Positions 22,647 through 52,612 of a stretch of 64,000 bases of DNA are shown here, one piece after another. The DNA lies in assembly GCA_934754335.1 (NCBI GenBank), contig CAKVHY010000003.1, forward strand, positions 419 through 64,418, in the 5' to 3' direction. The notes below the pieces were generated by a model. That model made no database searches and was not told the DNA's origin. It saw only the letters and a program-made list of their open reading frames with translations. Source of the DNA: an uncultured Clostridia bacterium. Its GTDB lineage: Bacteria > Bacillota > Clostridia > Christensenellales > UBA1242. The position numbers and the translations under genes were made by a program. Position 1 is the stretch's first letter; the number at the start of each line of letters is the position of its first letter.

Positions 22647-22666
22647 ATTTTTCTCCTAATAAATTA

Positions 22667-22695: not shown

Positions 22696-22711
22696 ATATA
22701 TAAAAGTAAAA

Positions 22712-22738
22712 AAAGTCAACCAATAAATGATTGACTTT
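22712..22738 (-). terminator. Hairpin terminator downstream of the giant gene and SPFH relic
   Basis: aaagtcaa (22712-22719) pairs with ttgacttt (22731-22738), 11-nt loop, T-rich on both sides. Confidence 0.4.
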
Positions 22739-22746
22739 CTTTTTTA

Positions 22747-23046
22747 TTAATTTTTATCTTTTTTTGAACTTTTATTAACATTCAAAGTTTCTGCCATAGT
22801 GGTTGCTAATGTTGTAACATTTTGCAAATCACTTGGAACGATTATTTTTGTGCTTTGACCATCTGCTAAATACTTCAATGCTTCAAATCCTTGTAAAGTT
22901 AGATAAGCAGCATCAGGTTTTGCTTGCATAATCTTCTTGATTGCTTCTGCAGTACCTTCCGCCTCCACCTGAGCCTCCTGAAGAACTTCCACCTGTTTAT
23001 CCGCCAGTGCTACCACCGGTGCTTCCACCGGTAGTGCCTGAACAGC
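22747..23046 (-). pseudogene. SPFH/band-7 (stomatin/QmcA-like) gene relic, C-terminal roughly 95 codons only
   Basis: ADKQVEVLQEAQVEAEGTAEAIKKIMQAKPDAAYLTLQGFEALKYLADGQSTKIIVPSDLQ matches the C-terminal helix and tail of SPFH proteins (AEGEAEAI...YL.L..LEAL...A.G..TKII.PS.L). The frame opens only at 23046, 2 nt after the giant ORF's TGA stop codon (23051-23053). There is no TM segment, no SPFH core, no ATG and no RBS. Confidence 0.55.
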
Positions 23047-23050
23047 CTAT

Positions 23051-26000
23051 TCACCCATTAGTTTGTTCTTTCCCAGGAATGACTGTACCTGAAGTTTTTG
23101 CTAATGACCAACCGAAGTCACAACTTGTTATTTTACTAATTACAGAATCATCTAACACTTTTCCAGACGAAGTATATGCTCTTACGTTATAACTTAATTC
23201 GTCATGAGTTACAGTTCCTTCTTTTAGTGTTCTTGAAGTTATCAAACCTAGAAGATTACTATGCATATTTAAACTGTTAATTTTTAATTGCTCTTCTTCT
23301 TTCTCAAAATTTATCTTAAATGTTACAGTTTCTCCATTTTTAATAATTTTTCTTGCAGAAGATTGAGTTAAACCAACATTTGAGAACATACTATTGATGT
23401 TATAATCCACCACAACATTCTGATTTGCATTTATTGCAGTTTGCCTTGCATATTCTTTACGCTTATCATCCTTGTCTGCATCCTTAATTACAAGTTCGCC
23501 ATAAATAGGCGTACCATCAATAATTGTTATAGATTGACCTGCAGATGGATTAGGAACTGATTGAACAATCTTTTCAGGTTCTGCATTATATGTTGCAGTA
23601 ATCTCTGAAGATTCATAAATATAACTTATAAATTCATAAGTGTAACTTAATCCGTTAGATAACGATACTTCTAATTCACATAGCACTACTGGAATCAATT
23701 TAACATATCCTGTTACATTCAAAGTACCGACCTTTATATTTTCAGAAACTTGTGTACCTCTATATGTGATATATCCTGCTCCATTACTATAATCGGTTTT
23801 ATAAATATCTTGTTCACTTTCAACTATTCTTTCTGACGTTATCGGTCTTCCTTCCTCATCATATCCAATCGTATCTACAACCGTATGCCAAACTTTTTCC
23901 TTATGACTAAAGATTTGATTATAAGTTATTTCACGACTCGTTTCAACCCAAGAACTAGCCGTCTGATATGAGATTTGTGCTTCCACGCTTTGAGTTCCTT
24001 GAATTCCAAGTTGAATTTCTTGATAATTTGAGGATTTTTTAATGCTTTTTCCATCACCTGGCATATATGTAAATTTATAAGTTGCCGTAACATCTGGGCT
24101 ATTGAAATCAGTTTGACCTTTCGATGAAAGGATTACTTGACCTGTGGAATCAATCAATTCAACAGTTCTTTCCAAATGACTAATTCTATTTGGCTTTTCA
24201 CCGCTAAATATCATTTGATCATGATCATACGTACCGCAATCTTCATCATAGTAACCTAACTTTAAATTATTACCTATAATCTTACCAATATAGTTAAATG
24301 CATTTAATGTGTTATGGAAATCTTGACCAGTTACCACAGTTCTTGATTTTCCCGCCTCAAATCCTGGAGAAAGCACTCCCAACATATCAAAAGTTCCTGA
24401 ATCTCCAACTTTTTTTGGCAAATATGCAGTAGTATAATATGTACAATATTCGCCTTGGCTTTTGCCATTACATACCCATGCATCTTTTCCGTCCCTAGTG
24501 CCTAACGACAACTGTTTTCCATAATTTGTACATTTTGAATTATTACAGAAATAGTTATGAATTATTTCAGTTACCTTATATCTTCCTTCATAATATCCGT
24601 CGTTGTAATCAGTATATAATGATGAAGAACTTTCAACACTACTTGAGATTTGCATTGTGATTTGCTTTACAATAATCTTATGATTATCTGTTAAGTTTGC
24701 ACCAACCGCTGAATAACCAGCAAGTCCTCCAACATACATAGATCCCATTATAGCACTAACAACTTTTTCTTTTGAACCAACAAATTCAGTTATTCCTTCA
24801 ACACGTAATTCTGTACTTTCACTCTTCTCACCAGCATCTGTATCAACATAACCAAACAAACCACCAACATAAGAGCCACCAGATATTGAACTACGTGCTG
24901 GAACTGTAACCCGACAATTTCCGAGTTTTGCTGAAGAAGATGCTAATGTATCTTTATGGAAGTTTCCGCAAATTCCACCAACATAATCTCCTTGTGCTGA
25001 AATTGAACCAGTGTTCGAACCGCTAATCTTTACTTGTTGAGTATTATCACTTGTACAATGTATTAATTCACCAGCGATTCCACCAACGTAACTTCCAGAC
25101 GCTGTGATTGTTGCGCTATTTTCACCGCTAACCGTAGGAGATGAACATTGTTCTCTTAAGATATTCCCGTCTCCATCATAAACATATCTAACATCGCCTT
25201 TTCCAAGTACTCCGCCAACATAGTTTACGCCTGAAATAGTTATATCATTATTAGCATCTTCACCGGCTGTTTGCCCTGAAATTTTACAGCCACCTATTGC
25301 ATAACCACAGATTCCGCCAACATAACTTCCTGATGCTGTTATGCCATCATATGTGTTATTTCCATTAATTCTTAGGCTTCTTGCTGAAGCAGTAATACTA
25401 CCGCCATTAGAGTAACCACATATTCCACCAACGTAATTTGTTCCGCTTACTCTAACGCCTCTATAACTACCAACCGCACAAAGACCATTTGAATAACCAA
25501 CAAATCCGCCGGTATAATCGCCCGAACCAACAACTGAAATATTTAATCCGTTTTCATCTTTATTGGTTTTTAATTTTAAGTATCTAACATATAAGATTTT
25601 AGATTCTCCTGACACACCGCCAGTTTTAGTTCCGCCATTGACGATAATATTCTCAATATTTCCATTTATAGCGGTAATACCATCATTATATCCGAATGCA
25701 CCACCAACATTGCTATTTCCATTTATAGAAGCAACACCATTTTCAATATTAACTCCGCCACCTATATAACCTGCAGTTGCAGAATCTACAGTTTTAGCAG
25801 ATCCGTTTGCCCCATCTATTAATGGATAGTGATAATTATAACTATCATTTTCTGAGTCAAATTCTGGAGATCTATTATTTTGACCTAACGTTAGACCATC
25901 TGCTGAACCAACATAATTAGTATTGAATCCACCTTCCAATTTTCCAGCAATACCACCAACATAAGCGTTACCAGATATTGAATAAGTTGAATCAGTAAAC

Positions 26001-29000
26001 AATACTTGAATTCTTTCAACATTAATATGACCTGTAACCAATCCGGCGATACCACCAACATAACTACCCGTGGAGTTATCTCCTAAGACTGTTACATTAG
26101 CAACAACAATACTTGTATGTGCTTCAATATCATCACCGCCACCAGGACGACTTTTATTTTTCAAGATACCGCCATTTAAGTAACCAACTACACCTCCAAC
26201 ATAACTTGAACCAGTTATTTTTTGGCTTTCATTACCTTTAACAAGGATTTTACCCATGATATCGCCATTTGCTCTACCAACGATACCACCAACATAACTT
26301 AAACCAGATATTTGAACCGAACTTGTATCCATTGAACCTGTACTATAAATATCTGCATATGCAACATAACCAAACATTCCACCAACGCCATTTCCACTAG
26401 CAAAAATAGTTGAATTAGTTATCTTAGAAGCATTAATACTAATAGTCTCATATGTTTTATCTGGCTCTTTAACGCCATATTTTACCAATTCAGCACCAAC
26501 TCCGCCACCAACGAATCCGCCATTAGCATTAAGATTTAAGTTTTGAATCTTGAAAGATTTCGTTGAAACACTAGTCTTTCTTGTTACACCTGCACCGCCA
26601 CCAGCAAATGCATACGTTTGATTAACAGAACCATTTCCTGATGGAGTTATATCTTCATACAACTGCCATGTTAAAGTTTCTCCAACTTTTTCTGAATATC
26701 TTGAGAAATATGCATAAATTTCATCTTCGCTTAACGCCTTACCTGTGGCAGTAACCGTGGCATTATTTAATTCAACTGAAGAAACATCAGCATAACCAGC
26801 CACACCACCAACAGCGTAAACGCCATTAACCGTTACATTATTTAATGTAATACTACCAACATATGGTCCATAACCAACAGCGCCACCAACCATTGCATTA
26901 CCTTTAACGGTTATTTTTGCATTATTGGTTATGAAATCAACTCTATTTTTACCTACTACCGAGCCTAATTGACCTTTACCAATCAAGCCACCAACCTTAT
27001 TTTGATTTGCTGTTACATTAATTGTGCCAGCAATCCAAACTTGATAATCTGCTTCGCTTGTTAGTGTACCTTCTTCTAGTCCACCAATAATTCCGCCAAC
27101 ATAAACACTTTCGGCTTCTTCAAATTCCTTAATGTAATTTAAATAAGCAGGATCGGAAGATGTTAAAGGTTCTATTGTTTTCTTACCCGCATTATCTATA
27201 ACTTCTTTAGTTTTATCAGGAAGAACTGCGATATATGTTGAGTTAACAACTATATTACTAAATGCTTCAGCACCTGTAACTAATGAGCCAGCACAACCAA
27301 TCAAACCACCAACATATTTACCATTAGATGTGATATTAACTCCGCTATCTGAAATAATAACAGCAACTTTATTAACTTCACGTCCCGCATAACCAATAGC
27401 ACCACCAACGTTATTGCCCTTAGTTGTACCATTATCAGAACGAGTTGAATTAGTTATTACAATATTTCCAACGTCAATATTATTATCTGTATTTAACTTA
27501 TCTACTACATTATTGCTAAGACTTGCATTTTCATTAGTACTATCTGTTTTACCTATTGCGCCACCAACGTTATCCCCATTTGCAGTGATTGTAATATTTA
27601 ATGCAAGGATTCTACGTTTTGCTCTATAATACTTAGTTCCATCAACTTTTGTGGAAGGAATCAAATTCGAAAGTTTTTCATCGTCATCATAATTTGGGGT
27701 TAATTTTCCGTTCGCATCTTTTTCATACGATAAAATCGTTTGATTTACATGGGCTGAAAGGATTTGAGTTTCAATAATGCGACCATTTTCAACTTTATTT
27801 AAACTATAGCCTTCAAATGCACCAACAACACCGCCGATGTTATCTCCAAGAGAAGAACTTATTGTTAGATTTCTAACAGTGATAGTTCCGCCTGAACCTC
27901 CAGCATAAGTATATTTTGACCCTTTATAATTGTATGCGCCTGCTGAGTTACTTTCTGTTGTGTAATGTCCTAAATCCAGATTAGATTTACCGAATGCACC
28001 ACCAACATAATTTCCTTGAGCAGTAATACTAACCGCATCTGCTTGGTTTTCTCCGCCAACTAAGATTGTGGCATAAATTCCAACTTTATTTCTTGCGAAC
28101 TGATCTTTACTTGAAAAATCATTTACATAATTATTCGCTGTAATTAAACCTGCAACACCACCAACGTAACCATCATCAGTATCTCCAGTTTCTTTAGCGA
28201 GTCTTCCGCCTGTTAAAGTTAATGCTTTAACGTTAACTGAACCCAAAAGTCCGCCACGGATATAACCAGCCACACCACCAACATATCTACCAGTGGTTGA
28301 AATTGTTACGGTTTGAACTATGATAGTTGCATTAACTTGGCAATTTCCATTTGCACTTGAATAATTATTTGTTCCCTTTTCCTCAGCCTTATTAGTTCTC
28401 CATTCGCTATTATCTCCAACACTACCGCTCACACCACCAACATAATCCATTTGTGATGATACTTGTGTTTCATTGATAATAATCACACCGCTTAGAGAAC
28501 CGCTAAAGCCTGCAAGTCCACCAACAAATGAACCTTGAGCAGAAACAATAGTTTTATCTATCAATGGGTCTTGGCTAGCAATTAATCCATTTATTCCAAC
28601 TGCAGAAATTTCTCTATATAAAGAACCTTTTGCTTGTTCTTCGCCAACCAAATAGAAATTAACGAAGCCAGCAATACCATATCCGCCACCAACAAATGCA
28701 CCATCAAGCAATGTATGATTTGAATAATGAACACCTGCGTTGAATGAACTTGTAATAGTATTATTCAATGCTGAAGCAACACCTAATGTAACTTCACTTG
28801 AATAACCAGTTAACTGACCGGCAATACCGCCTAGGAATACACCATTTGTTGTGGCATTTACGTCTTTGGCTTCAGTTGAATTAATCCAACCAACTGTTCC
28901 TGCAACGCCACCAACAAATGCATAATTTTGTCTGTAATTCCTTAAGTCTTTTGCAATCTTAGTTTTTAGATTTTCAATAGTTTCTTCAATTTCTTTAATG

Positions 29001-44000: not shown

Positions 44001-47000
44001 ACCAAGTAAACCTTAGAAGCAGTTAATGTAAGTACACCTTCAACCGCACCGATTACACCGCCAACATTCTTCTTCGCTCTTAAAGTTGGATAAGACGTTA
44101 AGCCAGACAATGTTGCTGAACCGCGTAGGAAACCTACAACTCCCCCAACATTTGCATAGTTAAATTCACCGTTTTCATCAACTACCACGATGCTTGCACT
44201 TGATGTTAAGTCGTAAAGCGATTTGGAAACTCCTGACCTATAGTAAGCATAACCAAGCACACCACCAACATTTATGAATTTGGAAATCGTACCTTTTTGT
44301 TCATTTGCCTGAACTACGATTGCAATGTCACTATTAACATATGAGTCTGTAACATTTGAAGTTTGCTGATATTTACCACCAATATTTGCGTTTACAATTG
44401 TATTTCCATTATTAATATCTGTTGATACAGCCTTACCAACCATACCACCAATATTTATTTGCTTGTAATTTTGGTTGTTATCATTACCAACAAAGTTGTC
44501 CGCCCAATTATTAGCATTTATATTTAAAATACCTTCACTTTTACAATTTAAAATACTTGTAACAGTATAACCTGCAATCCCGCCAATATTCAATGTGCTA
44601 AATTTAACTTTGCTAGCCAAAACAGAATTATCATTTTCTTCAGCCAACTGAGTTACAATCTTCGGCAAATCAGCATTAATATTCATATTAACAGCCAAGT
44701 TTTTAACAATTGCATTTGTGCCTGCAATAAATGGCAACACCGCAATATTTAATTCATTCGTATAAATTAAGTTTGAAATTTGATCATTTTTAATGGCATC
44801 TGCAATATCTTTTTGAGTTATATTCCAAACCACATTTAATGTGCTAAATTTAGAATATGAAACGCCATTATAAACATAATCCAACTTACCATTTAATGAG
44901 AATGTGTCTAAGTCTTCACCATTATTTGTAGCAAACACACCACTAATATCTTTCCAACTCAAGGCGTTATTGTTAGAAAGTGTTAAATCGTTTGTTAAAA
45001 CATAATAGTAGTTATTTTTAGATTTTAAATCTGCATACATCTGTTTTAGATCTGATATTTTTGAAATTTCAAATGCTGTTTCTTCAGATTTACCATCAGC
45101 CACTTTTACTCTTAAAACAACCTTAGTTGAAGCATCAACTGTGTTGCCAATTTGATACATACTATTTTCTGTTTGAATTGTTAAGTATGCAACACCGGCA
45201 GACTTAGGAACAATTTTGATATTATTTGAGTTTATACTACCATCAGCATTAACGCCTTCAACCTCAAATACTTCATTATTAAAATTACTTAGAATTAATC
45301 TGTCTTTAAATACAACAACAGATTCTGTTCTAAGTTCAAGATCAAATGAACTTGCAACATTATTTCTTTTCTCAATATAAACGCCTGTTTCATCAACGTT
45401 TTCTAAGATAATATTCTTAATCTTGTTTGCTCTTTCAATTTTTATATCAACATTTTCAGCACCAACAAGCAAACCAAATTGTTCCAAAGAAACTCTAAAC
45501 TTAATATTTAAAGCATCAGAATAAATCCAATTCTCTAATATTTCTTCAACATCTGAAGCACTTAATTTGCTCAATTTATTAATTTCAATCCATTTATTGG
45601 CAATCATTTTTATTCCGCCAGCACTTGCATCACTGCCATCATAACCAATCAAAGAATAGAAATCAACCAAATTTATAGTTAGAGTTTGCTCATCAAATGT
45701 TGCAATATCACCCAATTTAATTCTCAACACTTCATTATTTGAGAATTTAATTTCTCTAACCACAACATTTTCAAATGAATCAACGCCATATTTACTTTCA
45801 AACAAGTAACCGAATTCAACACCGGCTTTAGTTTCAGTTTTTAGCCCGCCCATGTCTTCAATTGTTGGTTCAACGCTATATTTCAATTGATAACTTGAAT
45901 ACTCGCCTGCTTTATTCATTCCAACTGAGTTATAATCATACAACACAGGTTCAGTTTGACTATTAATTGTAAACTTGCTTAAAGGTTTAAAGCACCAAAC
46001 TTTAATACTTTGAGAGTATTTTACCAATTCATATTTACTTTTTTCTTCATTCCACCTATAACCAGAATAATTAAATGTAATAATTGCTGGTTCTGAAGCA
46101 TTAGTAACCGCACCAGTTGTTACAATCTCTCCATTTTCCCAAGACAAATATTCTGAACCCCTAATTGAAACTGAACAATTAGCAGTTATATCTAATTTTC
46201 TTGAAACTCTATCACCATTCGCATCAATCGTTAGGATATAGTTATACAATTTTAAGCCAATTTTTGTTGGATTTTTAGAGCCCTTATCATTAACCCTTAC
46301 AACCAAATTAGAAATTGTGGAATAAGTTATCTCGCTCCAAATTTCGTTTTCATTTTCGCCATTTCTTTTATTTGGACTATATAAAATTTGTGAATTTAAT
46401 CTACTATCGTTATAAATATCTCCATTTCTAAATACTGAATTATTATCATTCAATTCCATTACAAATGGATATTTTACACCATTATTTTCACCAAAGAAAA
46501 TAGGAATAAACAAGTTACAAATTGATTGAATGCTTACAGTTTTGTAACCTGAAGATGCACTATTAAGTGCATAAATTTTGATTGAAGTTTTTCCAACATT
46601 TGCGTTTGAATTTGGAACAACATACAACTTCGAGCCTTCCGCACTTAATGAAAGAAGTTCTCTATCATATTCAGCATTCTTAATATCAAAATAATCAGCA
46701 ACATTTACATTTTCTTCAGACAAATCAATTAACAAGCAATCGCCTTTATTAGGATATGTAATATCTAAATCTAACTTTGCAATAGCCAAACCCTTTAAAT
46801 CTTCTTGACTCAAAGACTTAATTAGGTTAAGTTTAATAGTTTTACTTAACGAAGTTTCTATTTGTTTGAATGTACCATTTTCTTCTCTTTCACCTGTTGA
46901 AATTCTAAATTCAAAAGAGATTTTAACTGAATATTCATCTAATAAAGCATCAATTTCTTCATTGTTTAAATTATGCTTTATATAGAATAAACTTCCACTT

Positions 47001-48553
47001 TTTCCACCATCAACGCTATTTCCATTAACATCAATAAATCTTATAGGAGAAGTTGAAATATCTGTTTTCTCCCCATTTTTTAACAATGCTAGAGAATATC
47101 TTCCAGAATATGAAGGTTCCGCAACAACTTTAATTTTTGTACCTTGAATGCCATAGTAATCTTTAAAAATACTAACGCTTTCTAAAGTTGAATCATCATT
47201 AACAAATATTTCTCTTGGCATATTTGAAACCGAGACTCTAACCTTAATCTCTTTTGTAAACTGACCAACATAATCTTTATAATCTATCATGAAGGTAATA
47301 AGTGCAGAATCAGAAGTATTTGCAATATCAGAAGAAAGTTTGTAACTAGCACAATTAACTAAGTTGGCCAAATCTCCACCCATATTTCCGAAATTACTAC
47401 TATCGTAGTTCGCAACTTCTGCAACCACATACTTTGATGGAGCAGATACAACTTGTCCGGATCCAGTTTTTCTTACAATTTTATTATCAGCATCTTTGAT
47501 AGAAACAATATAATTTTCATCATCACGTCCACCAAGTTGACCAATTTTAAATGTTAAAATTCTGTTAATCAAATAATTATAATTTTGTTTTTCTTCTTCA
47601 GTCAAACCTTCTTGCAAAATGTTAAGGTTTGCCATTCCAATTTCATACTCACCTTTTCCATTCTTAGAAACAGCAAATACACCATTTCCCTCTGCGTTAT
47701 TTGAATAAACAACTATGTTGCTATCGGAAATAACGTCCACAACTTCAATCGTTTTCGTTGCAACAATCGGTTCAATACCTTCCTTGCCAACCGTATCAAG
47801 AGCAGTTACTTTGATTGGAACGCAAGTTTTTCCAAAAGATGTTATTCTATTTAAATTAAATAAAATATCATCTTTTGCAACACCACTTTTAACTCTCAAA
47901 ACACTATTTACGATTTCAAAGTTATCAGTTAACCATTTAAGTCTACCAGCATTGCTTGGATCACTTAAACTATTAGCACCAACTTGGAAATCTTTATCAA
48001 ATTCAACAAGAACATTTTTTCTACTTATATCGTTTGGAACGAAAGTTAAAACATTATCACCAGTCGGTGAAAAATCAAGTCCGTTTCCATTTACGTCAAG
48101 AGCCATATTTTTAACAGATAAAGAAGTAATACCCTTTTCGATATTTACTTTAATAGTCTTCTTTATTCCGCCTTCTTTTGTTAAAACAGTTATGATAGAT
48201 TCACCATCTAACCTAGGAGTAATCTTAACATAGTTTTTGTTATCTTTAAACTCTTTGGTGATGGAGATTTTTTCATCAGTTTGGATATCAATCTCCTTAC
48301 TAACCTCATCTTTACCAATAACAGTTATAACTACCGTTTTCTCCTCAGCGTTTGTAATTAAAACACCATCTTCAATTCTAGAAGAAATGGACAAAGAGAT
48401 AGCATCGTTATCCGACAATACCGAGCCATCAACTTCAACATTTATCTTCATGCCATCGTAAGGATTTCCACAAGCAAACAAAAATCCTAATGAACAAATA
48501 AATGTCATTACAATCACTAGCAATCTTTTTCTCATAACTTTCATTCCATCCAT
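23051..48553 (-). CDS. Giant (8,500 aa) surface lipoprotein with Ig-like regions and GLUG-motif beta-helix repeat modules
   Basis: Uninterrupted 25,503-nt ORF. N-terminal lipoprotein signal with lipobox LFAC. Well over 60 (by eye) G-G-[VIL]-[AVI]-G repeats (YVGGVAGY, NVGGLIGY, SIGGLVGC and others). True start may be any of Met1, Met4 or Met7. Confidence 0.9.
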   Translation of the reverse strand: MDGMKVMRKRLLVIVMTFICSLGFLFACGNPYDGMKINVEVDGSVLSDNDAISLSISSRIEDGVLITNAEEKTVVITVIGKDEVSKEIDIQTDEKISITKEFKDNKNYVKITPRLDGESIITVLTKEGGIKKTIKVNIEKGITSLSVKNMALDVNGNGLDFSPTGDNVLTFVPNDISRKNVLVEFDKDFQVGANSLSDPSNAGRLKWLTDNFEIVNSVLRVKSGVAKDDILFNLNRITSFGKTCVPIKVTALDTVGKEGIEPIVATKTIEVVDVISDSNIVVYSNNAEGNGVFAVSKNGKGEYEIGMANLNILQEGLTEEEKQNYNYLINRILTFKIGQLGGRDDENYIVSIKDADNKIVRKTGSGQVVSAPSKYVVAEVANYDSSNFGNMGGDLANLVNCASYKLSSDIANTSDSALITFMIDYKDYVGQFTKEIKVRVSVSNMPREIFVNDDSTLESVSIFKDYYGIQGTKIKVVAEPSYSGRYSLALLKNGEKTDISTSPIRFIDVNGNSVDGGKSGSLFYIKHNLNNEEIDALLDEYSVKISFEFRISTGEREENGTFKQIETSLSKTIKLNLIKSLSQEDLKGLAIAKLDLDITYPNKGDCLLIDLSEENVNVADYFDIKNAEYDRELLSLSAEGSKLYVVPNSNANVGKTSIKIYALNSASSGYKTVSIQSICNLFIPIFFGENNGVKYPFVMELNDNNSVFRNGDIYNDSRLNSQILYSPNKRNGENENEIWSEITYSTISNLVVRVNDKGSKNPTKIGLKLYNYILTIDANGDRVSRKLDITANCSVSIRGSEYLSWENGEIVTTGAVTNASEPAIITFNYSGYRWNEEKSKYELVKYSQSIKVWCFKPLSKFTINSQTEPVLYDYNSVGMNKAGEYSSYQLKYSVEPTIEDMGGLKTETKAGVEFGYLFESKYGVDSFENVVVREIKFSNNEVLRIKLGDIATFDEQTLTINLVDFYSLIGYDGSDASAGGIKMIANKWIEINKLSKLSASDVEEILENWIYSDALNIKFRVSLEQFGLLVGAENVDIKIERANKIKNIILENVDETGVYIEKRNNVASSFDLELRTESVVVFKDRLILSNFNNEVFEVEGVNADGSINSNNIKIVPKSAGVAYLTIQTENSMYQIGNTVDASTKVVLRVKVADGKSEETAFEISKISDLKQMYADLKSKNNYYYVLTNDLTLSNNNALSWKDISGVFATNNGEDLDTFSLNGKLDYVYNGVSYSKFSTLNVVWNITQKDIADAIKNDQISNLIYTNELNIAVLPFIAGTNAIVKNLAVNMNINADLPKIVTQLAEENDNSVLASKVKFSTLNIGGIAGYTVTSILNCKSEGILNINANNWADNFVGNDNNQNYKQINIGGMVGKAVSTDINNGNTIVNANIGGKYQQTSNVTDSYVNSDIAIVVQANEQKGTISKFINVGGVLGYAYYRSGVSKSLYDLTSSASIVVVDENGEFNYANVGGVVGFLRGSATLSGLTSYPTLRAKKNVGGVIGAVEGVLTLTASKVYLVSEMDSLGVNSSSIIANQNVGGLIGYACAINEDLAKITIQETYVRGFNTSNVDGTNFFGNIYGKKYDGWADDEVSIGGLVGCAEVSVSLDKTYFDASVYTNVNNPKVSGMVGVWTKNPSIIVYNEDGSSSTKKLNNTYSINNSYVKADISASVYGLCDGLDEVNKNEEQISNFVTKANVSKFYAYLNGNKYLILSNGGGNAGSTINKVDNFDFTGFDTTDGSINKGDWFINEKVNDGQPIILRRINDKLVPMYDYLPENLYASLYNLSFNNRAYIELSDSNNSSAEKNVVLFYNHNNEGITNVVNNKYLIGVDGIFSNATNYNYSRLISINLGGASSSIKTNFVELLLNGEISVKSSDIDQRVLKIKGNLIETVGTGVVDLTFYHTLNPEISTTVHFAVVDGFSEVKLYNINVKKEEVKPLTKGVENFETIYIDEDSNYLLEAVNIFNAGVAGEIAYNTNKNIGAIIEILDAKDLNDENVNGQIQVNQAGEVLTIADIGSLIYISNINDLSSLIFKGTKIGVVYLKITPVLNLETVQGIVDFESIYVKNDETKVNVRTELAEGEKVKALTNLGKEYAYNIVAKAKQIVIENEDAQIQPSGSDEVNIKVRTGNVALVDKTSGAGVKLYNADGSENIDYLAVINEDILINFYYYDTTNKKYNLVKSGDVKLENEPFTERFKNIENSSLVILEQSTAFVTMIAGSSEYIINYDVTFRFNKDRYKENATSFNLDELKYKVEFLAGSNKFATDTYDFVISASDPEKITATFYSQSEREEAGGFAENPGTTLSPGYTGLLKIQVSEKFSNCSYLTVELDSNSKDLYRYLNITQVRARLQEDQNEGLYHTIGYYPILTSIDENGVVTLEKTSSEYENIDNKIIFDDIFFLKFGLDESYKLEQSEREINLVIKAYNSKGTQVGSTLTKSLIVKPLPEIEVYINNSALFYDKTEIQPGDYKQIYWSAKNFDSIVEVSVSYANNAYMPYLFIVDESGLNSFIQNEGKSVDPEANGFTGMFEEGKSYYLVCLTTFFEHNNLMSNDLYDNASMIKIVATVSKYGVINPTSAEVSVQVVPLEIKDVTLAGSTSNGDSNNFEVLNGTSNGLQMLINPSEDSSDSTNIFRQIYGFKEETEKGKGSYVIFNNNYVDLNAEIENSKKVDAYKNITGYYNRDLIENRFDENNHPSFDLSNVGDNVYLYDSVSNSYINLKEMVAGGQYYLLNKGYYLISKLVITGENEKELKIEDFEKLNIQFEIDGISFNAKSVLGDSYLDYVQYYYANEQRYYSLKYMIENGGVFKGENEIYWKYNAKNYLNLTVYEAGNTAKYAYFRIYVPFERFYNLEEIKAILGNDDSYENRVCTTLLYKNRIYDINNYQLYEFEKTTDTGADFVNLYGEFVDVSKRYSMMDFSNKEKAQFAISGIYIDEDGTNTFVTGSKANFYYKVTDSNGEITETKLVKDGNYNGFIFKQETKTKVINGTKYNFHYYSLKATSVGNVGTILVKFDYFYDCFGEIRAFSDDIEDERFVKENDLYRVRIKDNEKSYKTEDGIEENYRYNLYTIEYEFDLIVKENTTYDHPNPIYDQKDFESMVEGQHYIMMNDITLSNYIPRVGNMASLDGNGYKITIESFDLKDFRGLSTEVNVGLFTEIVSEYTDASTGATGTPIVKNMTIDISPLFTSDDDIRKYTQDDTNLVYRYLNNFVTSSDIAENLNAYNNTISSHKLDLAFNKNVNFGVLAGINNGSITNVKVVSLEDINDSNLHILTSGIIDGVNTTLSFGGITAINNGSITNSFVGINNIISIDNNEIDNNFISWKNETADDKVIEDGKGETEDITLNPFKLAGSGRFAGVAVVNNNIISSTFAKAVGIENKYKGVENNETGAFVVVNAGKILNSFVEGYEFVENTYRTSQDFAISSENNVSGFVYENSGTIENAYSSVALKTHSSNSSGFVYENSGSIKYAYSTSYNTAIKAGNSGSLAHGAFNKWLDETSSGTGTIDNSYYLVAEGESELPYEQAVGISGIKNINGENGQMISEFDQANFFVGFIFLDNNEDSVWFMTKNGPKLVSTSIINTYSHRILTGMINEKTGEVIYDENTNTELDFSELTLVERAQYTYNYEYANDYQYGTRVNPLLVSTSEQFVNFIIENSRAYIDNNQKVVRVFGKTADETETDAVSTVNYIRQINDLEFAVTNETNIWNTPKNGVLLREVIFLGNYEGNGLDINNLNLTFKNDTEAKVNSHNFGLFNQIGLNKDNRDGLGINDAYAGAVIKNVNFDLVAYLGVQTTPDKAGVLAGSIYNSTIINVNISSSNDETAVVKGKNLVGGVSGLILDDTTGENADRTNLFDIEITDLKVRSSYENLIYTSAYTNPYGIYKKFATTQMDHTVISSYTLVDIENKGDTVSLNSYISNRIGSLSYAGSVAGIVYLDSNTNVNESERIKNLVTENFDEAVYKETEATIQNISVSGKFDIFAENAGGLFGYLGSNSKVSNVVLYANTDESKIGIKAKNYGGGIVAENRGVVEKAQLLFEDETQNTYDAEINNWNNLGKVNEAQETSGLFTVDGENYQGKIISIGGVAGYNNGGTIYDSMVKVPVTSDYALVAGGIIGYAENFTLIGYSYITSSVFANEVIGGTVGYYLAGAINQNKEFDLNYALYMEHVIALNKWGGKVRTALENNVSHLFTEANVDYKFTLRMAEIGNQQITSYSKIGRQQVAGKENEYTYYNIDASVKNLSYNNNANSFTYVGSLVGTVMVDNNIITNATTGAFTNHSENSVVDENRFIKQDKVNDLVEGELGDYFDGVVSTTYATLTTSGSADDENLSMNYGVINQALPTTSRVTTFNLANAELFSNGVVKVEKDNSKSIGEVFGDYKYSSIIQKDGMQTAIQLYLQNITGYYENVDTLPSGSTNETIDKMSSVNLFTNVYTVYEYNADGSYIIENGQRKISYKINASLVNPENPQARENYVWMKSSDEYLSKYKLAGYSNFATIKNSQELIEALSKPDNSRFYTMNTLSTDEGGKYVIDLTEISNRSNFARFNTVFRGVLTGMVDEDGNRPTVILKTGQVVDDEYYSVYALLNEINGAVISNIDFVIEIDNSRNVGKIYGSENGNFGLIATRVNLSTIEDCTFTIKSNNGNLKFELAYNEIEEGFNNVNNFGLIFGEVTASNIVGKDNGIVKLTVDDGIQELSIRTGVASTIGGFIGLAQSSSLYNISIQSDDKLKLNALVNYGRTTNNKIDLNFAGFVAKSASNSISSIEFKNINVNSDYDLNSNYLSNMRRYGVYFDIYIGGVVASSAYSTITNVYNNSGMNINLQRDGVEETLKKSTYSIYVGGIAGSILNTNIVNSKAGTLNVSEILVNAHYFYNYIGGLVGFVQDNSSISGNKESKNDYGNYSSIQASILVNAKDNAYIGGLIGYNKASGNVLTNMFNLGEVSVTNVTLLSESCSSVGIINLGGLVGYSDNGTYKNVYNAGDVKAVQSDTVEMNLGGFIGFAKVVKIENFIEYGDVYYYSRDNFFNNVGGIIGSASLTTIELKKGYSVARFYCINEPVNVEKTYNANLNTIASICNTDNTSEVYFVLEFYAKYQDVASSTEILSKAYDYSSYTDLDKSKNGTTAIGYADFIELVGTKLGNSEGFEDAQISDANSEPKVVLGRSTCLKTMLLPFELGKLSFEKGTKLNPQEITENAIANNTGYYILTTDITISDIDEFKGVLVGRNKNSINKNNNTPLDSANRGKDYPVLTVNITNLASTGIISGFAVRVSNDVKEHNFIGTNNGRVFNCVTFGEVTGDIKGSNDVENPTIVSSFLKTNNADIYRCGAVVTYTGKITGNVEREKDETTQKDIVKQDLVISGFVYENSGIIKDCYSTVNTDWVAKYHETGGVVKNYEINIKDAEEENKIPTGEKKDSLVAVGLAYINKTRTYSGISQSFHANEFIDYKVDLVGVEITYEIVTQEVLGAQVETINEVKTYRTSSIGSNNYNNSQTDDLLDKNISYFNSIDDAGNNIWDKSYRDTNYYLYNIRQGVVISTGIEAKLTYEVENDTNEIYVNAEEGSINYHNGQTQDGDIENKFPAKPKSVLDGSTYNLFQTESTSYIIKSEKDFNRYLLTSDIYGYQDLRLRKEGIDLPVYILNDSTQAKVYNLGGVNEDAIGFKDIKDEFIGFRITLTGFKLNGPMFEKNSGVIAGLTFKSLSLTDEQLEGDKDVAIVVGQNNKTIKWVFADGCSILSGKNGVGIISAYNIGTIGNVKVTNSSIGAFNNKYVSNAGAIAGMNVGTIGGHGVGAVMVGSANETGITIFGISYIGGAVGCNNGRIAGGVAVYKSNITGVDTSSQSIGGLAGASSASIESACVIECTITNLGVQTGGMIGYVESGVIGNDETYLISHTFVANSEITGNGSCIGGLIGLSYGSLKSVCLLDSNVGYQNEKTQANYVGGVVGYSTGYITMPYVIAGNGSISITGNANFVGGVAGYAYGTIYKFKVAPSSSGSGSITIKGLGNYVGGVAGRSDASIKSDYNGVYSLILDMKNVTVTAGTTKEDRITGGNYVGGVAGYGASVSEINVSELKVSSIADQDNYGYIGGVVGYGYVIKTINASKITVSTTGKACYIGGVAGYIEDIDNANAEEINVSAKGRYVGGIAGEAGRINQSYITKVDVSSQIENVGDSLDSRLRKAFETLLQQIKETEENCDNLNSLIRPYLNSEDKIAQESFAGINEIDYSDLSGFKNTVNNQLNVLISLIAEKEAYFTEKDGKTEKMYYEKLKDIANDAILFNQFVTGDKALPYVIEQSNKVISAVNKYISAKKVELKSKLTDADQEKYTALQEEVETISVEITNLVAEVHKYKDANNNYLYKAKDGENLYAKYWSADGITTSTLYNTYFASGSLNSFESKLSGTNKTNFAERMNGLKAKYNSLISSPKKDGENIINGLSKQRFITQYEGLEKQIIDLIALYGQNEIDSLTNTMNTKQAECDQLLAQIEEISDLKDELAELGTLSKQVSSYEEKFVEIKTNAIINKDEVLDIIKEIEETIENLKTKIAKDLRNYRQNYAFVGGVAGTVGWINSTEAKDVNATTNGVFLGGIAGQLTGYSSEVTLGVASALNNTITSSFNAGVHYSNHTLLDGAFVGGGYGIAGFVNFYLVGEEQAKGSLYREISAVGINGLIASQDPLIDKTIVSAQGSFVGGLAGFSGSLSGVIIINETQVSSQMDYVGGVSGSVGDNSEWRTNKAEEKGTNNYSSANGNCQVNATIIVQTVTISTTGRYVGGVAGYIRGGLLGSVNVKALTLTGGRLAKETGDTDDGYVGGVAGLITANNYVNDFSSKDQFARNKVGIYATILVGGENQADAVSITAQGNYVGGAFGKSNLDLGHYTTESNSAGAYNYKGSKYTYAGGSGGTITVRNLTISSSLGDNIGGVVGAFEGYSLNKVENGRIIETQILSAHVNQTILSYEKDANGKLTPNYDDDEKLSNLIPSTKVDGTKYYRAKRRILALNITITANGDNVGGAIGKTDSTNENASLSNNVVDKLNTDNNIDVGNIVITNSTRSDNGTTKGNNVGGAIGYAGREVNKVAVIISDSGVNITSNGKYVGGLIGCAGSLVTGAEAFSNIVVNSTYIAVLPDKTKEVIDNAGKKTIEPLTSSDPAYLNYIKEFEEAESVYVGGIIGGLEEGTLTSEADYQVWIAGTINVTANQNKVGGLIGKGQLGSVVGKNRVDFITNNAKITVKGNAMVGGAVGYGPYVGSITLNNVTVNGVYAVGGVAGYADVSSVELNNATVTATGKALSEDEIYAYFSRYSEKVGETLTWQLYEDITPSGNGSVNQTYAFAGGGAGVTRKTSVSTKSFKIQNLNLNANGGFVGGGVGAELVKYGVKEPDKTYETISINASKITNSTIFASGNGVGGMFGYVAYADIYSTGSMDTSSVQISGLSYVGGIVGRANGDIMGKILVKGNESQKITGSSYVGGVVGYLNGGILKNKSRPGGGDDIEAHTSIVVANVTVLGDNSTGSYVGGIAGLVTGHINVERIQVLFTDSTYSISGNAYVGGIAGKLEGGFNTNYVGSADGLTLGQNNRSPEFDSENDSYNYHYPLIDGANGSAKTVDSATAGYIGGGVNIENGVASINGNSNVGGAFGYNDGITAINGNIENIIVNGGTKTGGVSGESKILYVRYLKLKTNKDENGLNISVVGSGDYTGGFVGYSNGLCAVGSYRGVRVSGTNYVGGICGYSNGGSITASARSLRINGNNTYDGITASGSYVGGICGYAIGGCKISGQTAGEDANNDITISGVNYVGGVLGKGDVRYVYDGDGNILREQCSSPTVSGENSATITASGSYVGGIAGELIHCTSDNTQQVKISGSNTGSISAQGDYVGGICGNFHKDTLASSSAKLGNCRVTVPARSSISGGSYVGGLFGYVDTDAGEKSESTELRVEGITEFVGSKEKVVSAIMGSMYVGGLAGYSAVGANLTDNHKIIVKQITMQISSSVESSSSLYTDYNDGYYEGRYKVTEIIHNYFCNNSKCTNYGKQLSLGTRDGKDAWVCNGKSQGEYCTYYTTAYLPKKVGDSGTFDMLGVLSPGFEAGKSRTVVTGQDFHNTLNAFNYIGKIIGNNLKLGYYDEDCGTYDHDQMIFSGEKPNRISHLERTVELIDSTGQVILSSKGQTDFNSPDVTATYKFTYMPGDGKSIKKSSNYQEIQLGIQGTQSVEAQISYQTASSWVETSREITYNQIFSHKEKVWHTVVDTIGYDEEGRPITSERIVESEQDIYKTDYSNGAGYITYRGTQVSENIKVGTLNVTGYVKLIPVVLCELEVSLSNGLSYTYEFISYIYESSEITATYNAEPEKIVQSVPNPSAGQSITIIDGTPIYGELVIKDADKDDKRKEYARQTAINANQNVVVDYNINSMFSNVGLTQSSARKIIKNGETVTFKINFEKEEEQLKINSLNMHSNLLGLITSRTLKEGTVTHDELSYNVRAYTSSGKVLDDSVISKITSCDFGWSLAKTSGTVIPGKEQTNG
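23054..24700 (-). other. Unique non-repetitive C-terminal domain of the giant protein (about 550 aa) with a 4-Cys cluster
   Basis: After the last YVGGLAGY the sequence becomes non-repetitive. FCNNSKCTNYGKQLSLGTRDGKDAWVCNGKSQGEYC (near nt 24440-24560), then a beta-rich region to the end. No LPXTG or other anchor. Confidence 0.5.
24700..28950 (-). repeat. Giant protein module 6, part B: about 1,400 aa of dense GLUG beta-helix repeats
   Basis: VGGVAGT, LGGIAGQ, VGGLAGF, VGGVSGS, VGGVAGY, VGGVAGL, VGGAFGK, IGGVVGA, VGGAIGK/Y, VGGLIGC/K, VGGIIGG, VGGAVGY, VGGMFGY, VGGIVGR, VGGIAGL/K, VGGICGY x2, VGGVLGK, VGGIAGE, VGGICGN, VGGLFGY, VGGLAGY. Confidence 0.6.
28950..30105 (-). other. Alpha-helical/coiled-coil-like insert of about 385 aa splitting the dense GLUG array
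   Basis: A Gly-poor stretch rich in E/K/L/I/Q/N, from SQIENVGDSLDSRLRKAFETLLQQIKETEEN to IKEIEETIENLKTKIAKDLRNYRQNYA. It has no GGxxG motif and is flanked on both sides by YVGGIAGE and FVGGVAGT. Confidence 0.6.
30105..31800 (-). repeat. Giant protein module 6, part A: dense GLUG beta-helix repeats
   Basis: Head YIIKSEKDFNRYLL...YILNDSTQ, then a GGxxG motif every 20-30 aa (IGGAVGC, IGGLAGA, TGGMIGY, IGGLIGL, VGGVVGY, VGGVAGY x3, IGGVVGY, IGGVAGY, VGGIAGE). Confidence 0.6.
31800..39310 (-). repeat. Giant protein GLUG modules 2-5
   Basis: Module heads lie near 39150-39310, 37380-37680, 34850-35100 and 32800-33060, each followed by looser GLUG-type repeats (FGGITAINNGSI, VGGVSGL, AGGLFGY, IGGVAGYNNGG, VGGIAGSI, IGGLVGF, LGGLVGY and others). 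Confidence 0.55.
39320..43290 (-). other. Giant protein region II: about 1,300-aa GLUG-free spacer (Tyr/Asn-rich, beta-rich)
   Basis: No GGxxG motifs between DGQPIILRRINDKLVPMYDYL and HPNPIYDQKDFESMV. Some Ig-like strand signatures (VVDLTFYHTLNPEISTTVHFAVV). Boundaries approximate. Confidence 0.45.
43290..45080 (-). repeat. Giant protein GLUG module 1 (about aa 1160-1750)
   Basis: Opens with the module head AFEISKISDLKQMYADLKSKNNYYYVLTNDLTLS. Then IGGIAGY, IGGMVGK, VGGVLGY, VGGVVGF, VGGVIGA, VGGLIGY, IGGLVGC. Boundaries approximate. Confidence 0.6.
45090..48469 (-). other. Giant protein region I: about 1,130 aa, GLUG-free, Ig-like/beta-sandwich-type
   Basis: Repeated Big_2-like terminal-strand signatures (ITPRLDGESIITVLTKEGGIKKTIKVNI; KIVPKSAGVAYLTIQTE...VVLRVKV) and no GGxxG repeats. 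Boundaries approximate. Confidence 0.5.
48470..48553 (-). other. Type II (lipoprotein) signal peptide of the giant protein
   Basis: MDGMKVMRKRLLVIVMTFICSLGFLFAC: positive n-region, hydrophobic core, lipobox L-F-A-C with Cys28 (codon at 48470-48472). Confidence 0.75.
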
Positions 48554-48639
48554 AAACTTATTATTTGTAATTTTATTTTTATAATAACTTTTTCAAATAT
48601 AATTTTTAAGATTTATTATAATTAATAATTACTAGTAAT

Positions 48640-48668
48640 AGTATAACTATTTTGTCGAAACATGTCAA
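48640..48668 (-). promoter_or_regulatory. Candidate sigma-A promoter of the giant gene
   Basis: Minus strand TTGACA (48663-48668), 17 nt, TATACT (48640-48645), about 85 nt upstream of the first ATG. Confidence 0.45.
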
Positions 48669-48891
48669 AGAAAATCAAGTATTTATTAAAACTTTTTTAA
48701 TATTTTTATATTTAATATTTACGCCTTTATAAAGCCCTTTTTATAATGTTTGGATAATACTTTGCAAAATAAAAAATTAAAATAATAATTAGGCTAAAAA
48801 ATTTTATTAATTTTTATAAAAATTTTTTCAAAAAATCTTTTAAAATCCTATGAAATATGCTAAAATGTTTTAGTTTTAAAAGGATAAAAAT

Positions 48892-49632: not shown

Positions 49633-49636
49633 AAAA

Positions 49637-52610: not shown

Positions 52611-52612
52611 TG

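What the first reader, a model, noticed from the sequence alone, without database searches (positions are those of the whole stretch)
23051..48553. One uninterrupted 25.5-kb ORF: an 8,500-aa lipid-anchored GLUG/beta-helix giant protein
In DNA this AT-rich, random ORFs are short, yet this frame runs 25,503 nt without a stop and fills 40 percent of the window. The N-terminus (MRKRLLVIVMTFICSLGFLFAC) is a lipoprotein signal with a lipobox. The body carries well over 60 (by eye) G-G-[VIL]-[AVI]-G-x hairpin motifs, as in the Pfam GLUG motif of large surface proteins, interleaved with Ig-like stretches. I found no HExxH, no LPXTG, no nucleotide-binding or other catalytic motif, and no transposase or phage gene nearby. 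The gene sits among core housekeeping genes with similar composition, so it looks like a resident gene. Giant adhesins are known, but a lipobox-anchored multi-module GLUG protein of this size has no assigned function that I know of.
Basis: partly seen in the sequence, partly recalled or inferred. Interest (0 to 1): 0.85.

Follow-up and report, generated by a model that had tools for sequence, protein, structure and literature searches.

The report
Giant GLUG beta-helix surface lipoprotein gene
A real, intact 25.5-kb gene in an uncultured human-gut Clostridia bacterium encodes an 8,500-residue lipid-anchored surface protein; about 40% of it is several beta-helix modules related to the binding domain of streptococcal IgA1 proteases, the rest matches nothing, and it is an unusually large, fast-evolving member of a known class of giant gut-bacterial surface proteins rather than a new kind of system.

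Summary
The ORF is real: window 23051-48553, minus strand, 8,500 codons without a stop. It has a near-consensus promoter, a lipoprotein signal and a downstream terminator. It contains no long DNA repeats. Two assemblers produced it in one run, and both ends recur in a Hadza gut sample at 99.9% identity.

Pfam barely detects GLUG (one tile, 21.4 bits against a 20.5 cut-off). However, the C-terminal repeat region is homologous (E to 3e-35) to 700-2,000-aa Clostridia surface proteins annotated with GLUG. A profile of that family hits about six modules in the giant. The same profile matches the solved N-terminal beta-helix of streptococcal IgA1 proteases (E 3e-16).

About 60% of the protein has no detectable relative. 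This includes the N-terminal 1,150 aa, aa 1700-3080 and the C-terminal 535 aa. The only orthologue found is a contig-truncated fragment in the closest MAG, at the same locus: 30% identical, against 68% for PlsX.

Most likely it is a long, lipid-anchored, rapidly evolving adhesion fibre. No catalytic, toxin or sortase signal was found.

Giant surface proteins of gut Clostridia are already described, so this is a new member of a known kind. Interest is moderate to low.

The parts
48640..48668 (-). Sigma-70-type promoter TTGACA-17 nt-TATACT, about 90 nt upstream of the first ATG
   Evidence: 11 of 12 consensus matches, the best site in the intergenic region. Sequence read. This is a consensus match only; no transcription data.
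23051..48553 (-). The giant ORF: 8,500 codons plus stop. The true start may be Met7 (MRKRLL...), preceded by GGATGGA 9 nt upstream.
   Evidence: Called as an 8,500-aa product in two assemblies.
48470..48553 (-). Signal peptide with lipobox (…GFLFA|C); Cys28 counted from the first ATG
   Evidence: G+LPP pattern match and the only Kyte-Doolittle >1.6 segment near the N-terminus. The homologue consensus also begins MKK…C.
45104..48469 (-). aa 29-1150: beta/turn-rich N-terminal region with no detectable relatives
   Evidence: No Pfam or NCBIfam hit. No hit among 8,000 scored candidates from 5.8 billion proteins. No relative in GTDB species genomes. No PDB hit. Only a weak profile match of aa 835-1160 to the pre-head part of the GLUG family.
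43454..45103 (-). aa 1151-1700: beta-helix module 1. Head is EISKISDLKQMY…YYYVLTNDLTLS, followed by VGG-x-G coils.
   Evidence: Profile hits with i-E 1.6e-11 and 1.4e-16; head hit. AF2 model shows a strand-helix-strand cap and a solenoid with pLDDT up to 91. Foldseek top hits are IgA1 proteases, E 0.024, prob 0.97.
39314..43453 (-). aa 1701-3080: second large orphan region
   Evidence: No homologues for aa 1651-2850. No Pfam hit. No internal repeats.
32294..39313 (-). aa 3081-5420: four further diverged beta-helix modules, with heads near aa 3083, 3715, 4490-4560 (by eye) and 5189, and spacers between them
   Evidence: Head HMM hits: 2.1e-07 at aa 3083, 1.1e-03 at 3715, 1.1e-03 at 5189. Family profile hits at 2648-3155, 3893-4272 and 4385-5029. 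The Pfam Glug hit lies in tile aa 4751-5700.
30104..31786 (-). aa 5590-6150: beta-helix module 6, with regular YVGG[VI]AG coils
   Evidence: Profile hits 5.9e-08 and 1.3e-19. Internal self-similarity appears only from here onward.
28934..30103 (-). aa 6151-6540: alpha-helical (coiled-coil-like) insertion inside the beta-helix region
   Evidence: Helix-former content is 0.45 against about 0.3 elsewhere. Only sub-threshold hits to helical-bundle families such as PhoU_div and Syntaxin. Structure not modelled.
24659..28933 (-). aa 6541-7965: long GLUG beta-solenoid of about 30 coils
   Evidence: Homologous to GLUG-annotated Clostridia proteins, E down to 3e-35. AF2 with a 56-sequence alignment gives repeating short strands with pLDDT up to 94 over aa 7301-7970. 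Colinear with the L003 orthologue.
23054..24658 (-). aa 7966-8500: orphan C-terminal domain, inferred to be the distal tip
   Evidence: Exhaustive HMMER against 1.84 billion representatives found only an identical 1,417-aa fragment (P0001) and a 118-aa fragment. Conserved colinearly to the last residue in the single orthologue L003. AF2 pLDDT about 30, with no alignment depth.
22708..22742 (-). Terminator-like hairpin plus T-run, downstream of the giant and of a small ORF remnant, before the plsX promoter region
   Evidence: 1 found against 0.2 expected.

Best explanation
The gene encodes a cell-surface fibre of an uncultured, spore-forming gut Clostridia bacterium (Christensenellales-like).

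Proposed mechanism, step by step:
- It is transcribed on its own from a vegetative-type promoter.
- It is exported through Sec.
- It is lipidated at the lipobox cysteine and held on the outer face of the membrane by its N-terminus.
- The body is a chain of about six to seven rigid right-handed beta-helix (GLUG-type) rods. These are joined by non-repetitive beta-rich spacers and one ~390-aa helical segment.
- The lineage-specific ~535-aa C-terminal domain sits at the far end.

The beta-helix modules are homologous to the N-terminal beta-helix of streptococcal M26 IgA1 proteases, which there acts as a protein-binding and gating domain. The most likely role is therefore binding of host, dietary or microbial surface ligands, that is adhesion or recognition, under diversifying pressure. 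An enzymatic role is less likely.

Shown: an intact ORF, reproducible assembly, the lipoprotein pattern, homology of about 35-40% of the protein to the GLUG/IgA1P-NTD beta-helix family, lack of relatives for the rest, and a fast-diverging syntenic orthologue.

Inferred: export, lipidation, extended fibre geometry, tip function and adhesion.
For: ORF and signals.

Assembly is not an artefact:
- No tandem or long direct DNA repeats and almost no internal protein repeats.
- The MEGAHIT contig and the Logan contig (38,133 nt, spanning the whole gene) are identical over the 31.9 kb compared (window 15179-32646 and 38892-53311), and both record an 8,500-aa product.
- An independent Hadza sample carries both gene ends with the same neighbours at 99.9% identity.

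Family:
- 66 homologues at E 3e-35 to 3e-4, many annotated PF07581 or PF09479.
- Their consensus is a lipoprotein signal, then a head YxLxxDIDLSGxxWxPIxxFxGxLxGNGxxIxNL, then NxGxIxGxxYVGGIxG coils.
- A profile built without the query hits six regions of the giant. Heads were mapped.
- The profile matches the solved IgA1 protease NTD at E 3e-16, which is a beta-helix that contacts the IgA1 Fab (PMC7695701).
- AF2 solenoid segments reach pLDDT 80-94. Foldseek's top hits are IgA1 proteases and other parallel beta-helices.

Rapid evolution and restricted distribution: the only orthologue (L003, same position upstream of plsX) is 30% identical, against 68% for PlsX.

No catalytic or toxin signal.

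Precedent: bacterial proteins above 5,000 aa are mostly NRPS/PKS or surface/attachment proteins (PMC11573180). Giant gut Clostridia surface proteins have been described.
Against: There is no direct evidence of expression, export, lipidation or binding.

About 60% of the protein has no homologue and no confident structure, so hidden enzymatic or other domains cannot be excluded.

Foldseek matches are all above E 0.001, and mean model pLDDT is only 52-56.

The Pfam GLUG hit is marginal.

One low-coverage (about 3x) Hadza contig carries a TTA>TAA nonsense change at codon 7020. If real, some strains have a truncated gene.

All seven differences from the Hadza contigs within the gene are non-synonymous. 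This could reflect sequencing errors or relaxed or diversifying selection.

The lgt and lspA genes were not seen; they lie outside the window or were not searched for.
Confidence: 0.6

Rival explanations
1. It is a surface-tethered multi-enzyme, for example a glycan lyase or hydrolase, or a protease scaffold. The parallel beta-helices or the orphan regions would carry active sites, as in pectate lyases, pectin methylesterases, polygalacturonases and phage tailspike depolymerases.
For: After the IgA1 proteases, lower-ranked Foldseek hits are pectin methylesterases, a polygalacturonase, isopullulanase, fucoidan lyase and tailspikes. The right-handed beta-helix fold is often catalytic (established knowledge). 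About 5,000 aa are uncharacterised.
Against: Those matches have E > 1. No Pfam or NCBIfam glycosidase, lyase or peptidase family was found at E <= 10 in any tile. There is no HExxH. The significant sequence relationship is to the non-catalytic NTD of IgA1 proteases.
Confidence: 0.15
2. It is a structural envelope component, an S-layer-like coat, a spacer or a spore-surface appendage, rather than a ligand-specific adhesin.
For: It has a membrane anchor, great length and rigid rod modules. The organism carries sporulation genes next to the locus: spoIIID, yabP, yabQ. The gene sits in a core-gene neighbourhood.
Against: The promoter looks like a vegetative sigma-A type. The gene is absent from nearly all relatives at this locus (78 of 80 PlsX loci carry no GLUG-family ORF), and the orthologue is only 30% identical. 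A core structural component would not be expected to behave this way. No SLH or cell-wall-binding repeats were found.
Confidence: 0.12
3. It is a contact-dependent polymorphic toxin or effector-delivery protein whose orphan C-terminal domain is the toxic cargo.
For: It is a very long beta-helical stalk with a unique C-terminal ~535 aa. Some family members carry TIR_2 domains.
Against: The C-terminal domain is colinearly conserved with the orthologue to the last residue, at about the same level as the stalk. There is no conserved-stalk/variable-tip break. No toxin family hit was found; Ntox24 scored E 0.064 in the N-terminal tile, which is noise. The downstream ORF is a 73-99-aa remnant with no family and is not conserved in relatives, so no immunity-gene pattern is evident. 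An N-terminal lipid anchor is atypical for delivered toxins.
Confidence: 0.05
4. It is a non-functional or artefactual ORF: a chimeric assembly or a decaying gene.
For: There is a nonsense SNP at codon 7020 in one ~3x-coverage Hadza contig, and all seven differences in the gene are non-synonymous. There are no expression data.
Against: The ORF is 8,500 stop-free codons in 32% GC DNA. Two assemblers gave identical sequence over the 31.9 kb compared and the same 8,500-aa product, and an independent sample has both junctions. There are no repeats that could cause collapse. Codon usage is native. A promoter, signal peptide and terminator are in place. A syntenic orthologue has an open frame.
Confidence: 0.03

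Closest known systems
Single-module GLUG (PF07581) surface proteins and lipoproteins of gut Clostridia, 700-2,000 aa, mostly unnamed 'hypothetical' or 'InlB B-repeat-containing' proteins
   Same: They share the head motif and the NxGxIxGxxYVGGIxG beta-helix coils, at 25-34% identity and E down to 3e-35. Many have an N-terminal signal ending in Cys.
   Different: Of the 66 homologues, 58 have one head, 2 have two and 1 has four, and their lengths are 679-2,041 aa. The giant has about six heads, is 8,500 aa long, contains about 5,000 aa of sequence without relatives, has a helical insertion, and lacks their Flg_new, Lectin_C and TIR_2 domains.
N-terminal beta-helix domain of Gram-positive M26 IgA1 metalloproteases (S. 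pneumoniae 6XJA/6XJB, Gemella haemolysans 7UVK/7UVL)
   Same: The family profile matches this domain at E 3e-16 to 4e-10. It is also the top Foldseek hit for module 1. In IgA1P it is a right-handed beta-helix that contacts the substrate Fab and gates the active site (PMC7695701).
   Different: The giant has no HExxH, no M26 middle or C-terminal catalytic domains, no G5 domain and no LPxTG anchor. It has many beta-helix modules instead of one, and is lipid-anchored rather than sortase-anchored.
Giant (10,000-30,000 aa) surface proteins of mammalian-gut Clostridia described by West-Roberts et al. 2023 (bioRxiv 10.1101/2023.11.21.568195)
   Same: Same habitat and bacterial class. Both are extracellular multi-domain giants proposed to bind host or prey surfaces.
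   Different: Those are described as built from RCC1, Listeria-Bacteroides repeat, YG-repeat, dockerin and LRR domains. None of these is detected here by Pfam. This protein is smaller and largely non-repetitive.
Classical giant repeat adhesins (Ebh, SiiE, LapA/Bap-type, MpIBP)
   Same: Multi-thousand-residue extended cell-surface proteins with an anchor at one end and a presumed ligand-binding end (established knowledge).
   Different: Those consist of many near-identical tandem Ig-like or helical repeats and use LPxTG, T1SS or other anchors. Here there are no tandem DNA repeats, almost no internal BLAST-level similarity before aa 5700, and a lipobox anchor.
Multi-head GLUG-family giant ORF in a related MAG (L006, CALVLZ010000012.1, downstream of rnc)
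   Same: More than 3,047 aa, at least four family-profile hits including heads, no Pfam hit, low GC, and in the same plsX-rnc neighbourhood of a relative whose PlsX is 67% identical.
   Different: It is not orthologous: no tblastn hit at 1e-5 and a different position (after rnc rather than before plsX). Its N-terminus looks like a membrane or signal anchor without an obvious lipobox. The ORF runs off the fetched locus.

Membership tests
GLUG motif family (Pfam PF07581) | Match to the Pfam Glug HMM at or above the gathering score | tested here: inconclusive
   Only the tile aa 4751-5700 passes, and barely (21.4 bits against 20.5, five stretches, E 3.2e-4). The 4,500-aa halves gave nothing at E <= 0.01, and the other tiles gave no Glug hit even at E <= 10.
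GLUG motif family (Pfam PF07581) | Significant sequence homology to proteins that carry the domain | tested here: met
   There were 66 hits at E 3e-35 to 3e-4, and the majority have precomputed PF07581. A profile of these hits built without the query matches six regions of the giant, with i-E down to 1e-30.
Right-handed parallel beta-helix (IgA1-protease NTD type) | Sequence-profile or structural match to a solved beta-helix of this type | tested here: met
   The family profile (which includes the giant's aa 7301-8500) matches 6xjb, 7jgj and 6xja at E 3e-16 over the NTD beta-helix (the domain is described in PMC7695701). AF2 models show solenoid strand triplets with pLDDT up to 94. Foldseek support is weak: best E 0.024, prob 0.97, TM at most 0.24. 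Handedness was not measured directly.
Bacterial lipoprotein (Lgt/LspA substrate) | Positively charged n-region, hydrophobic h-region and a lipobox [LVI][ASTVIF][GAS]C within the first ~35 residues | tested here: met
   MRKR / LLVIVMTFICSLGF / LFA|C matches the G+LPP pattern.
Bacterial lipoprotein (Lgt/LspA substrate) | The organism encodes lgt and lspA, and the protein is actually acylated | not testable with these tools
   These genes are not in the 64-kb window. A second lipobox protein in the window (56370-58823) suggests the pathway is used. Acylation needs an experiment.
Tandem-repeat giant adhesins (Bap, Ebh, SiiE, LapA-like) | Long arrays of near-identical tandem domain repeats | tested here: not met
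   TRF found no array inside the gene. Direct repeats are only 30-59-nt degenerate motif matches. Self-BLAST shows no similarity in aa 1-5700 except a few motif-level hits.
Sortase-anchored surface proteins | C-terminal LPxTG, then a hydrophobic segment and a charged tail | tested here: not met
   There is no LP.TG anywhere and no C-terminal hydrophobic segment.
M26 IgA1 metalloprotease | HExxH zinc site with the M26 catalytic middle and C-terminal domains | tested here: not met
   There is no HExxH and no Peptidase_M26 Pfam hit. The PDB profile match covers only the NTD.
Polymorphic toxin / contact-dependent inhibition systems | Variable C-terminal toxin domain demarcated from a conserved stalk, with an adjacent immunity gene | tested here: not met
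   The C-terminus is colinear with the orthologue to the last residue. There is no toxin family hit. The downstream small ORF has no family and is not conserved.
Omnitrophota-type giant proteins (West-Roberts et al. 2023) | Numerous transmembrane regions and a divergent SecA DEAD helicase domain | tested here: not met
   There is a single hydrophobic segment, the signal peptide, and no SecA or DEAD Pfam hit. The features are as stated in the paper's abstract.

The most novel reading that the evidence does not exclude
The ~5,000 aa without any detectable relative (aa 29-1150, 1700-3080, the inter-module spacers and the 535-aa C-terminal tip) may contain new folds or a new activity. In that case the protein would not be just an adhesin. 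It could be a previously undescribed type of modular, lipid-anchored beta-helix machine specific to a small clade of gut Christensenellales-like bacteria, for example for attachment to a particular partner cell or host structure. It would have evolved by ancient concatenation of about six whole GLUG surface-protein units.
Probability: 0.12. Interest if true: 0.65.

Novelty: new member of a known kind. Interest (0 to 1): 0.35.

Why it matters
This is a cleanly assembled, complete example of a giant surface protein from an uncultured human-gut Clostridia lineage. Such genes usually break assemblies; the only orthologue found is truncated by a contig end.

It shows that the poorly characterised GLUG beta-helix unit is homologous to the substrate-binding domain of IgA1 proteases. 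It also shows that this unit can be concatenated many times into a fibre, and that such fibres evolve far faster than the core genome.

If its ligand were identified, it could explain how this lineage attaches within the gut. As it stands, it adds a member to a known class rather than opening a new question.

Tried and rejected
- Searches with aa 1-1200 and 1651-2850 found nothing. Only the 8,000 most word-sharing candidates are scored, so these negatives are weak.
- The exact-sequence cluster look-up of the 8,500-aa protein found it absent from the collection, so orthologue lengths could not be obtained that way.
- The GTDB scan with the N-terminal 2,000 aa found no relative.
- The metagenome scan with the giant+L003 alignment used GLUG-like patterns. 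It returned only the L003 contig again (as L084) plus an unrelated GLUG locus.
- PDB sequence searches with the raw halves found nothing. Only the family profile worked.
- The first MAFFT alignment for module 1 (A3) misplaced the head and was discarded in favour of A4.
- AF2 gave no usable model for the C-terminal 530 aa because there was no alignment depth.
- The Foldseek search of model 1 gave nothing significant, and the BFVD search gave nothing at E <= 0.001.
- The Cys-rich stretch CNNSKC…CNGKSQGEYC (aa 8003-8037) was considered as a zinc ribbon. It was dropped because it is not conserved in the orthologue.
- From memory, the 99-aa ORF after the stop looked like an SPFH C-terminal remnant. 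No Pfam, NCBIfam or PDB support was found, so that idea is not upheld.
- dN/dS could not be estimated: the strain comparison has only seven differences, at about 3x coverage, and the orthologue is saturated at 30% identity.
Full report
**Observation**

The window contains one ATG-initiated ORF at 23051..48553 on the minus strand, 8,500 codons plus stop. At about 32% GC a random frame meets a stop about every 13 codons, so the open frame cannot be chance.

A near-consensus sigma-70-type promoter (TTGACA-17-TATACT, 48668-48640) lies about 90 nt upstream. A terminator-like hairpin follows at 22742-22708. The upstream gene, a PP-loop ATPase, is divergent, so the giant appears to be its own transcription unit.

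The N-terminus reads MDGMKVMRKRLLVIVMTFICSLGFLFAC|GN. It matches the Gram-positive lipoprotein pattern and is the only hydrophobic segment of membrane-spanning length. There is no HExxH and no LPxTG.

The strict motif GG[VIL][AVI]G occurs 37 times, against 0.4 expected. A relaxed form occurs 61 times. All occurrences fall in five clusters between aa 1320 and 7945.

**Is the assembly trustworthy?**

There are no tandem repeats in the gene. The only direct repeats are 30-59-nt degenerate copies of the motif-coding sequence. At protein level there is almost no BLAST-detectable self-similarity before aa 5700. Repeat collapse is therefore not a concern.

The source contig (ENA ERZ27286941, 145 kb) and a Logan assembly contig of run ERR7746748 (38,133 nt, spanning the whole gene) are identical over the 31.9 kb compared. 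Both give an 8,500-aa product.

An independent Hadza gut sample (ERZ4561837) yields two short contigs at about 3x coverage. One carries the 3' end with plsX and rnc (L083). The other carries the 5' end with the PP-loop gene (L088). Both are 99.9% identical to the window.

In those contigs all seven differences inside the gene are non-synonymous. One converts Leu7020 (TTA) to TAA. At 3x coverage this cannot be told apart from sequencing error, so I treat it as inconclusive.

Codon usage and GC match the neighbours.

**Context and organism**

Downstream on the same strand lie plsX, rnc, smc, ftsY, ylxM, ffh, rpsP, rimM and trmD. Upstream lie spoIIID, acpP, an M23 peptidase, yabP, yabQ, divIC, pepF and tmk. 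No mobile-element or phage genes are present.

The best PlsX relatives are at most 68% identical. All are uncultured gut or rumen MAGs, named Clostridia or 'Christensenella sp.'. The host is thus an undescribed, probably spore-forming, Christensenellales-like lineage. The taxonomy is inferred from record titles only.

**What the protein is made of**

Pfam and NCBIfam find nothing on 4,500-aa halves. On 950-aa tiles only Glug PF07581 passes, marginally, in aa 4751-5700.

Homology searching is more informative. The C-terminal 1,200 aa retrieve 66 proteins of 679-2,041 aa, at 25-34% identity and E down to 3e-35. Most carry precomputed GLUG and/or Listeria-Bacteroides-repeat domains, and some carry Lectin_C or TIR_2. 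Their consensus architecture is a signal ending in Cys, a variable beta-rich part, a 'head' (YxLxxDIDLSGxxWxPIxxFxGxLxGNGxxIxNL) and NxGxIxGxxYVGGIxG coils.

A profile of these proteins built without the query hits the giant at aa 835-1584, 2648-3155, 3893-4272, 5447-6147, 6530-7107 and 7314-7963. A head-only profile, together with inspection by eye, places heads near aa 1161, 3083, 3715, 4490-4560, 5189 and 5600.

The same family profile matches the solved N-terminal beta-helix of S. pneumoniae and Gemella IgA1 metalloproteases (E 3e-16 to 4e-10). In those enzymes this domain is a right-handed beta-helix that contacts the IgA1 Fab and gates the active site (PMC7695701).

AF2 models built with 56-sequence alignments show solenoid-like strand triplets, with pLDDT up to 94 over aa 7301-7970 and up to 91 in module 1. 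For module 1, Foldseek ranks IgA1 proteases first (E 0.024, prob 0.97) and then other parallel beta-helices. Nothing reaches E 0.001.

A ~390-aa helix-rich island (aa 6151-6540) interrupts the beta-helix region.

**What has no relatives**

- aa 1-1200 and aa 1651-2850 gave no hits.
- The N-terminal 2,000 aa have no relative in 185,579 species genomes.
- The C-terminal 560 aa were scored exhaustively against 1.84 billion representatives. They matched only an identical fragment and a 118-aa fragment.
- The halves match nothing in the PDB by sequence.

About 60% of the protein is therefore orphan.

**Relatives of the gene**

Of 80 PlsX loci from related MAGs, only the closest (L003, identical to L084, a 'fermentation metagenome' contig) carries an orthologue. 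It sits directly upstream of plsX and runs off the contig end. It is colinear with aa 7231-8500 to the last residue at 30% identity, whereas PlsX is 68% identical.

Another relative (L006) has a non-orthologous ORF of more than 3,047 aa downstream of rnc. It has no Pfam hit but belongs to the multi-head GLUG family by profile. Multi-module GLUG giants therefore recur in this clade, are patchily distributed and diverge fast.

**Mechanism (inference)**

1. Sec export.
2. Lgt/LspA lipidation at the lipobox Cys.
3. An N-terminally tethered fibre made of rigid beta-helix rods, spacers and a helical segment.
4. A lineage-specific distal domain.

I favour ligand binding or adhesion under diversifying selection (confidence 0.6). 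Three observations support this:
- homology to a protein-binding beta-helix;
- absence of any catalytic or toxin signal;
- fast divergence.

The rivals are a surface enzyme (0.15), a structural or spore coat component (0.12), a polymorphic toxin (0.05) and an artefact or pseudogene (0.03).

**Novelty**

Bacterial proteins above 5,000 aa are mainly NRPS/PKS or surface/attachment proteins (PMC11573180). Giant 10-30 kaa surface proteins of gut Clostridia have already been reported (bioRxiv 10.1101/2023.11.21.568195). GLUG proteins with lipoprotein-type signals are common among the homologues: 18 of 66 fit the pattern.

What is unusual here is the degree of concatenation (about six heads, against one in 58 of 66 homologues), the non-repetitive sequence and the large orphan fraction.

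I classify it as a new member of a known kind, with interest 0.35.

Noticed in passing
window 22747-23046 (minus strand): Immediately after the giant's stop codon there is an unusually GC-rich stretch (…GGCACTACCGGTGGAAGCACCGGTGGTAGCACTGGCGG…) and a stop-free ~99-aa frame; gene callers take its last 73 aa from a GTG. It has no Pfam, NCBIfam or PDB match and no counterpart in 80 related plsX loci. It may be a remnant of a gene displaced when the giant gene arose or expanded.
   Followed up: partly
L083 position 1046 = window 27495: In a Hadza gut contig at about 3x coverage, codon 7020 of the giant is TAA instead of TTA, so the gene is called in two pieces there. All seven differences between the Hadza contigs and the window inside the gene are non-synonymous, and three cluster within 19 nt. 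This could be sequencing error or a truncated or diversifying allele.
   Followed up: partly
L006 11849-20989 (CALVLZ010000012.1): A related MAG (PlsX 67% identical, GC 28%) has an open frame of more than 3,047 aa just downstream of rnc. It has no Pfam hit but matches the GLUG-family profile with several heads. It is a second, non-orthologous multi-module giant in the same neighbourhood.
   Followed up: partly
window 56370-58823 (minus strand): An 817-aa predicted lipoprotein (MKKITKILLCFLAFFTLFLVGC|NEE…) with no Pfam or NCBIfam family. It is another orphan surface protein of this organism.
   Followed up: partly
window 60450-61904 (minus strand): A 484-aa protein with leucine-rich repeats (LRR_4, LRR_8), possibly another surface or interaction protein.
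   Followed up: no
window 49668-52534: A cluster of sporulation and division genes (spoIIID, an M23 peptidase, yabP, yabQ, divIC-like) next to acpP. This indicates that the uncultured host is probably an endospore former.
   Followed up: partly
proteins P0004, P0012, P0034, P0065: Several GLUG-family homologues of 1,300-1,750 aa carry a TIR_2 domain (PF13676), and others carry C-type lectin domains (PF00059). TIR domains on apparently exported beta-helix proteins are odd and were not examined.
   Followed up: no
L085 2786-14302 (JACCDQ010194238.1): An unrelated metagenome contig carries two adjacent GLUG-family open frames (2,341 and 1,497 aa) separated only by a stop. This may be one gene of more than 3,800 aa with an interruption.
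   Followed up: no
window 7166-8038 and 8947-9591 (minus strand), 50993-51577 (minus strand): ORFs of 290, 214 and 194 aa without any Pfam family, sitting among housekeeping genes.
   Followed up: no
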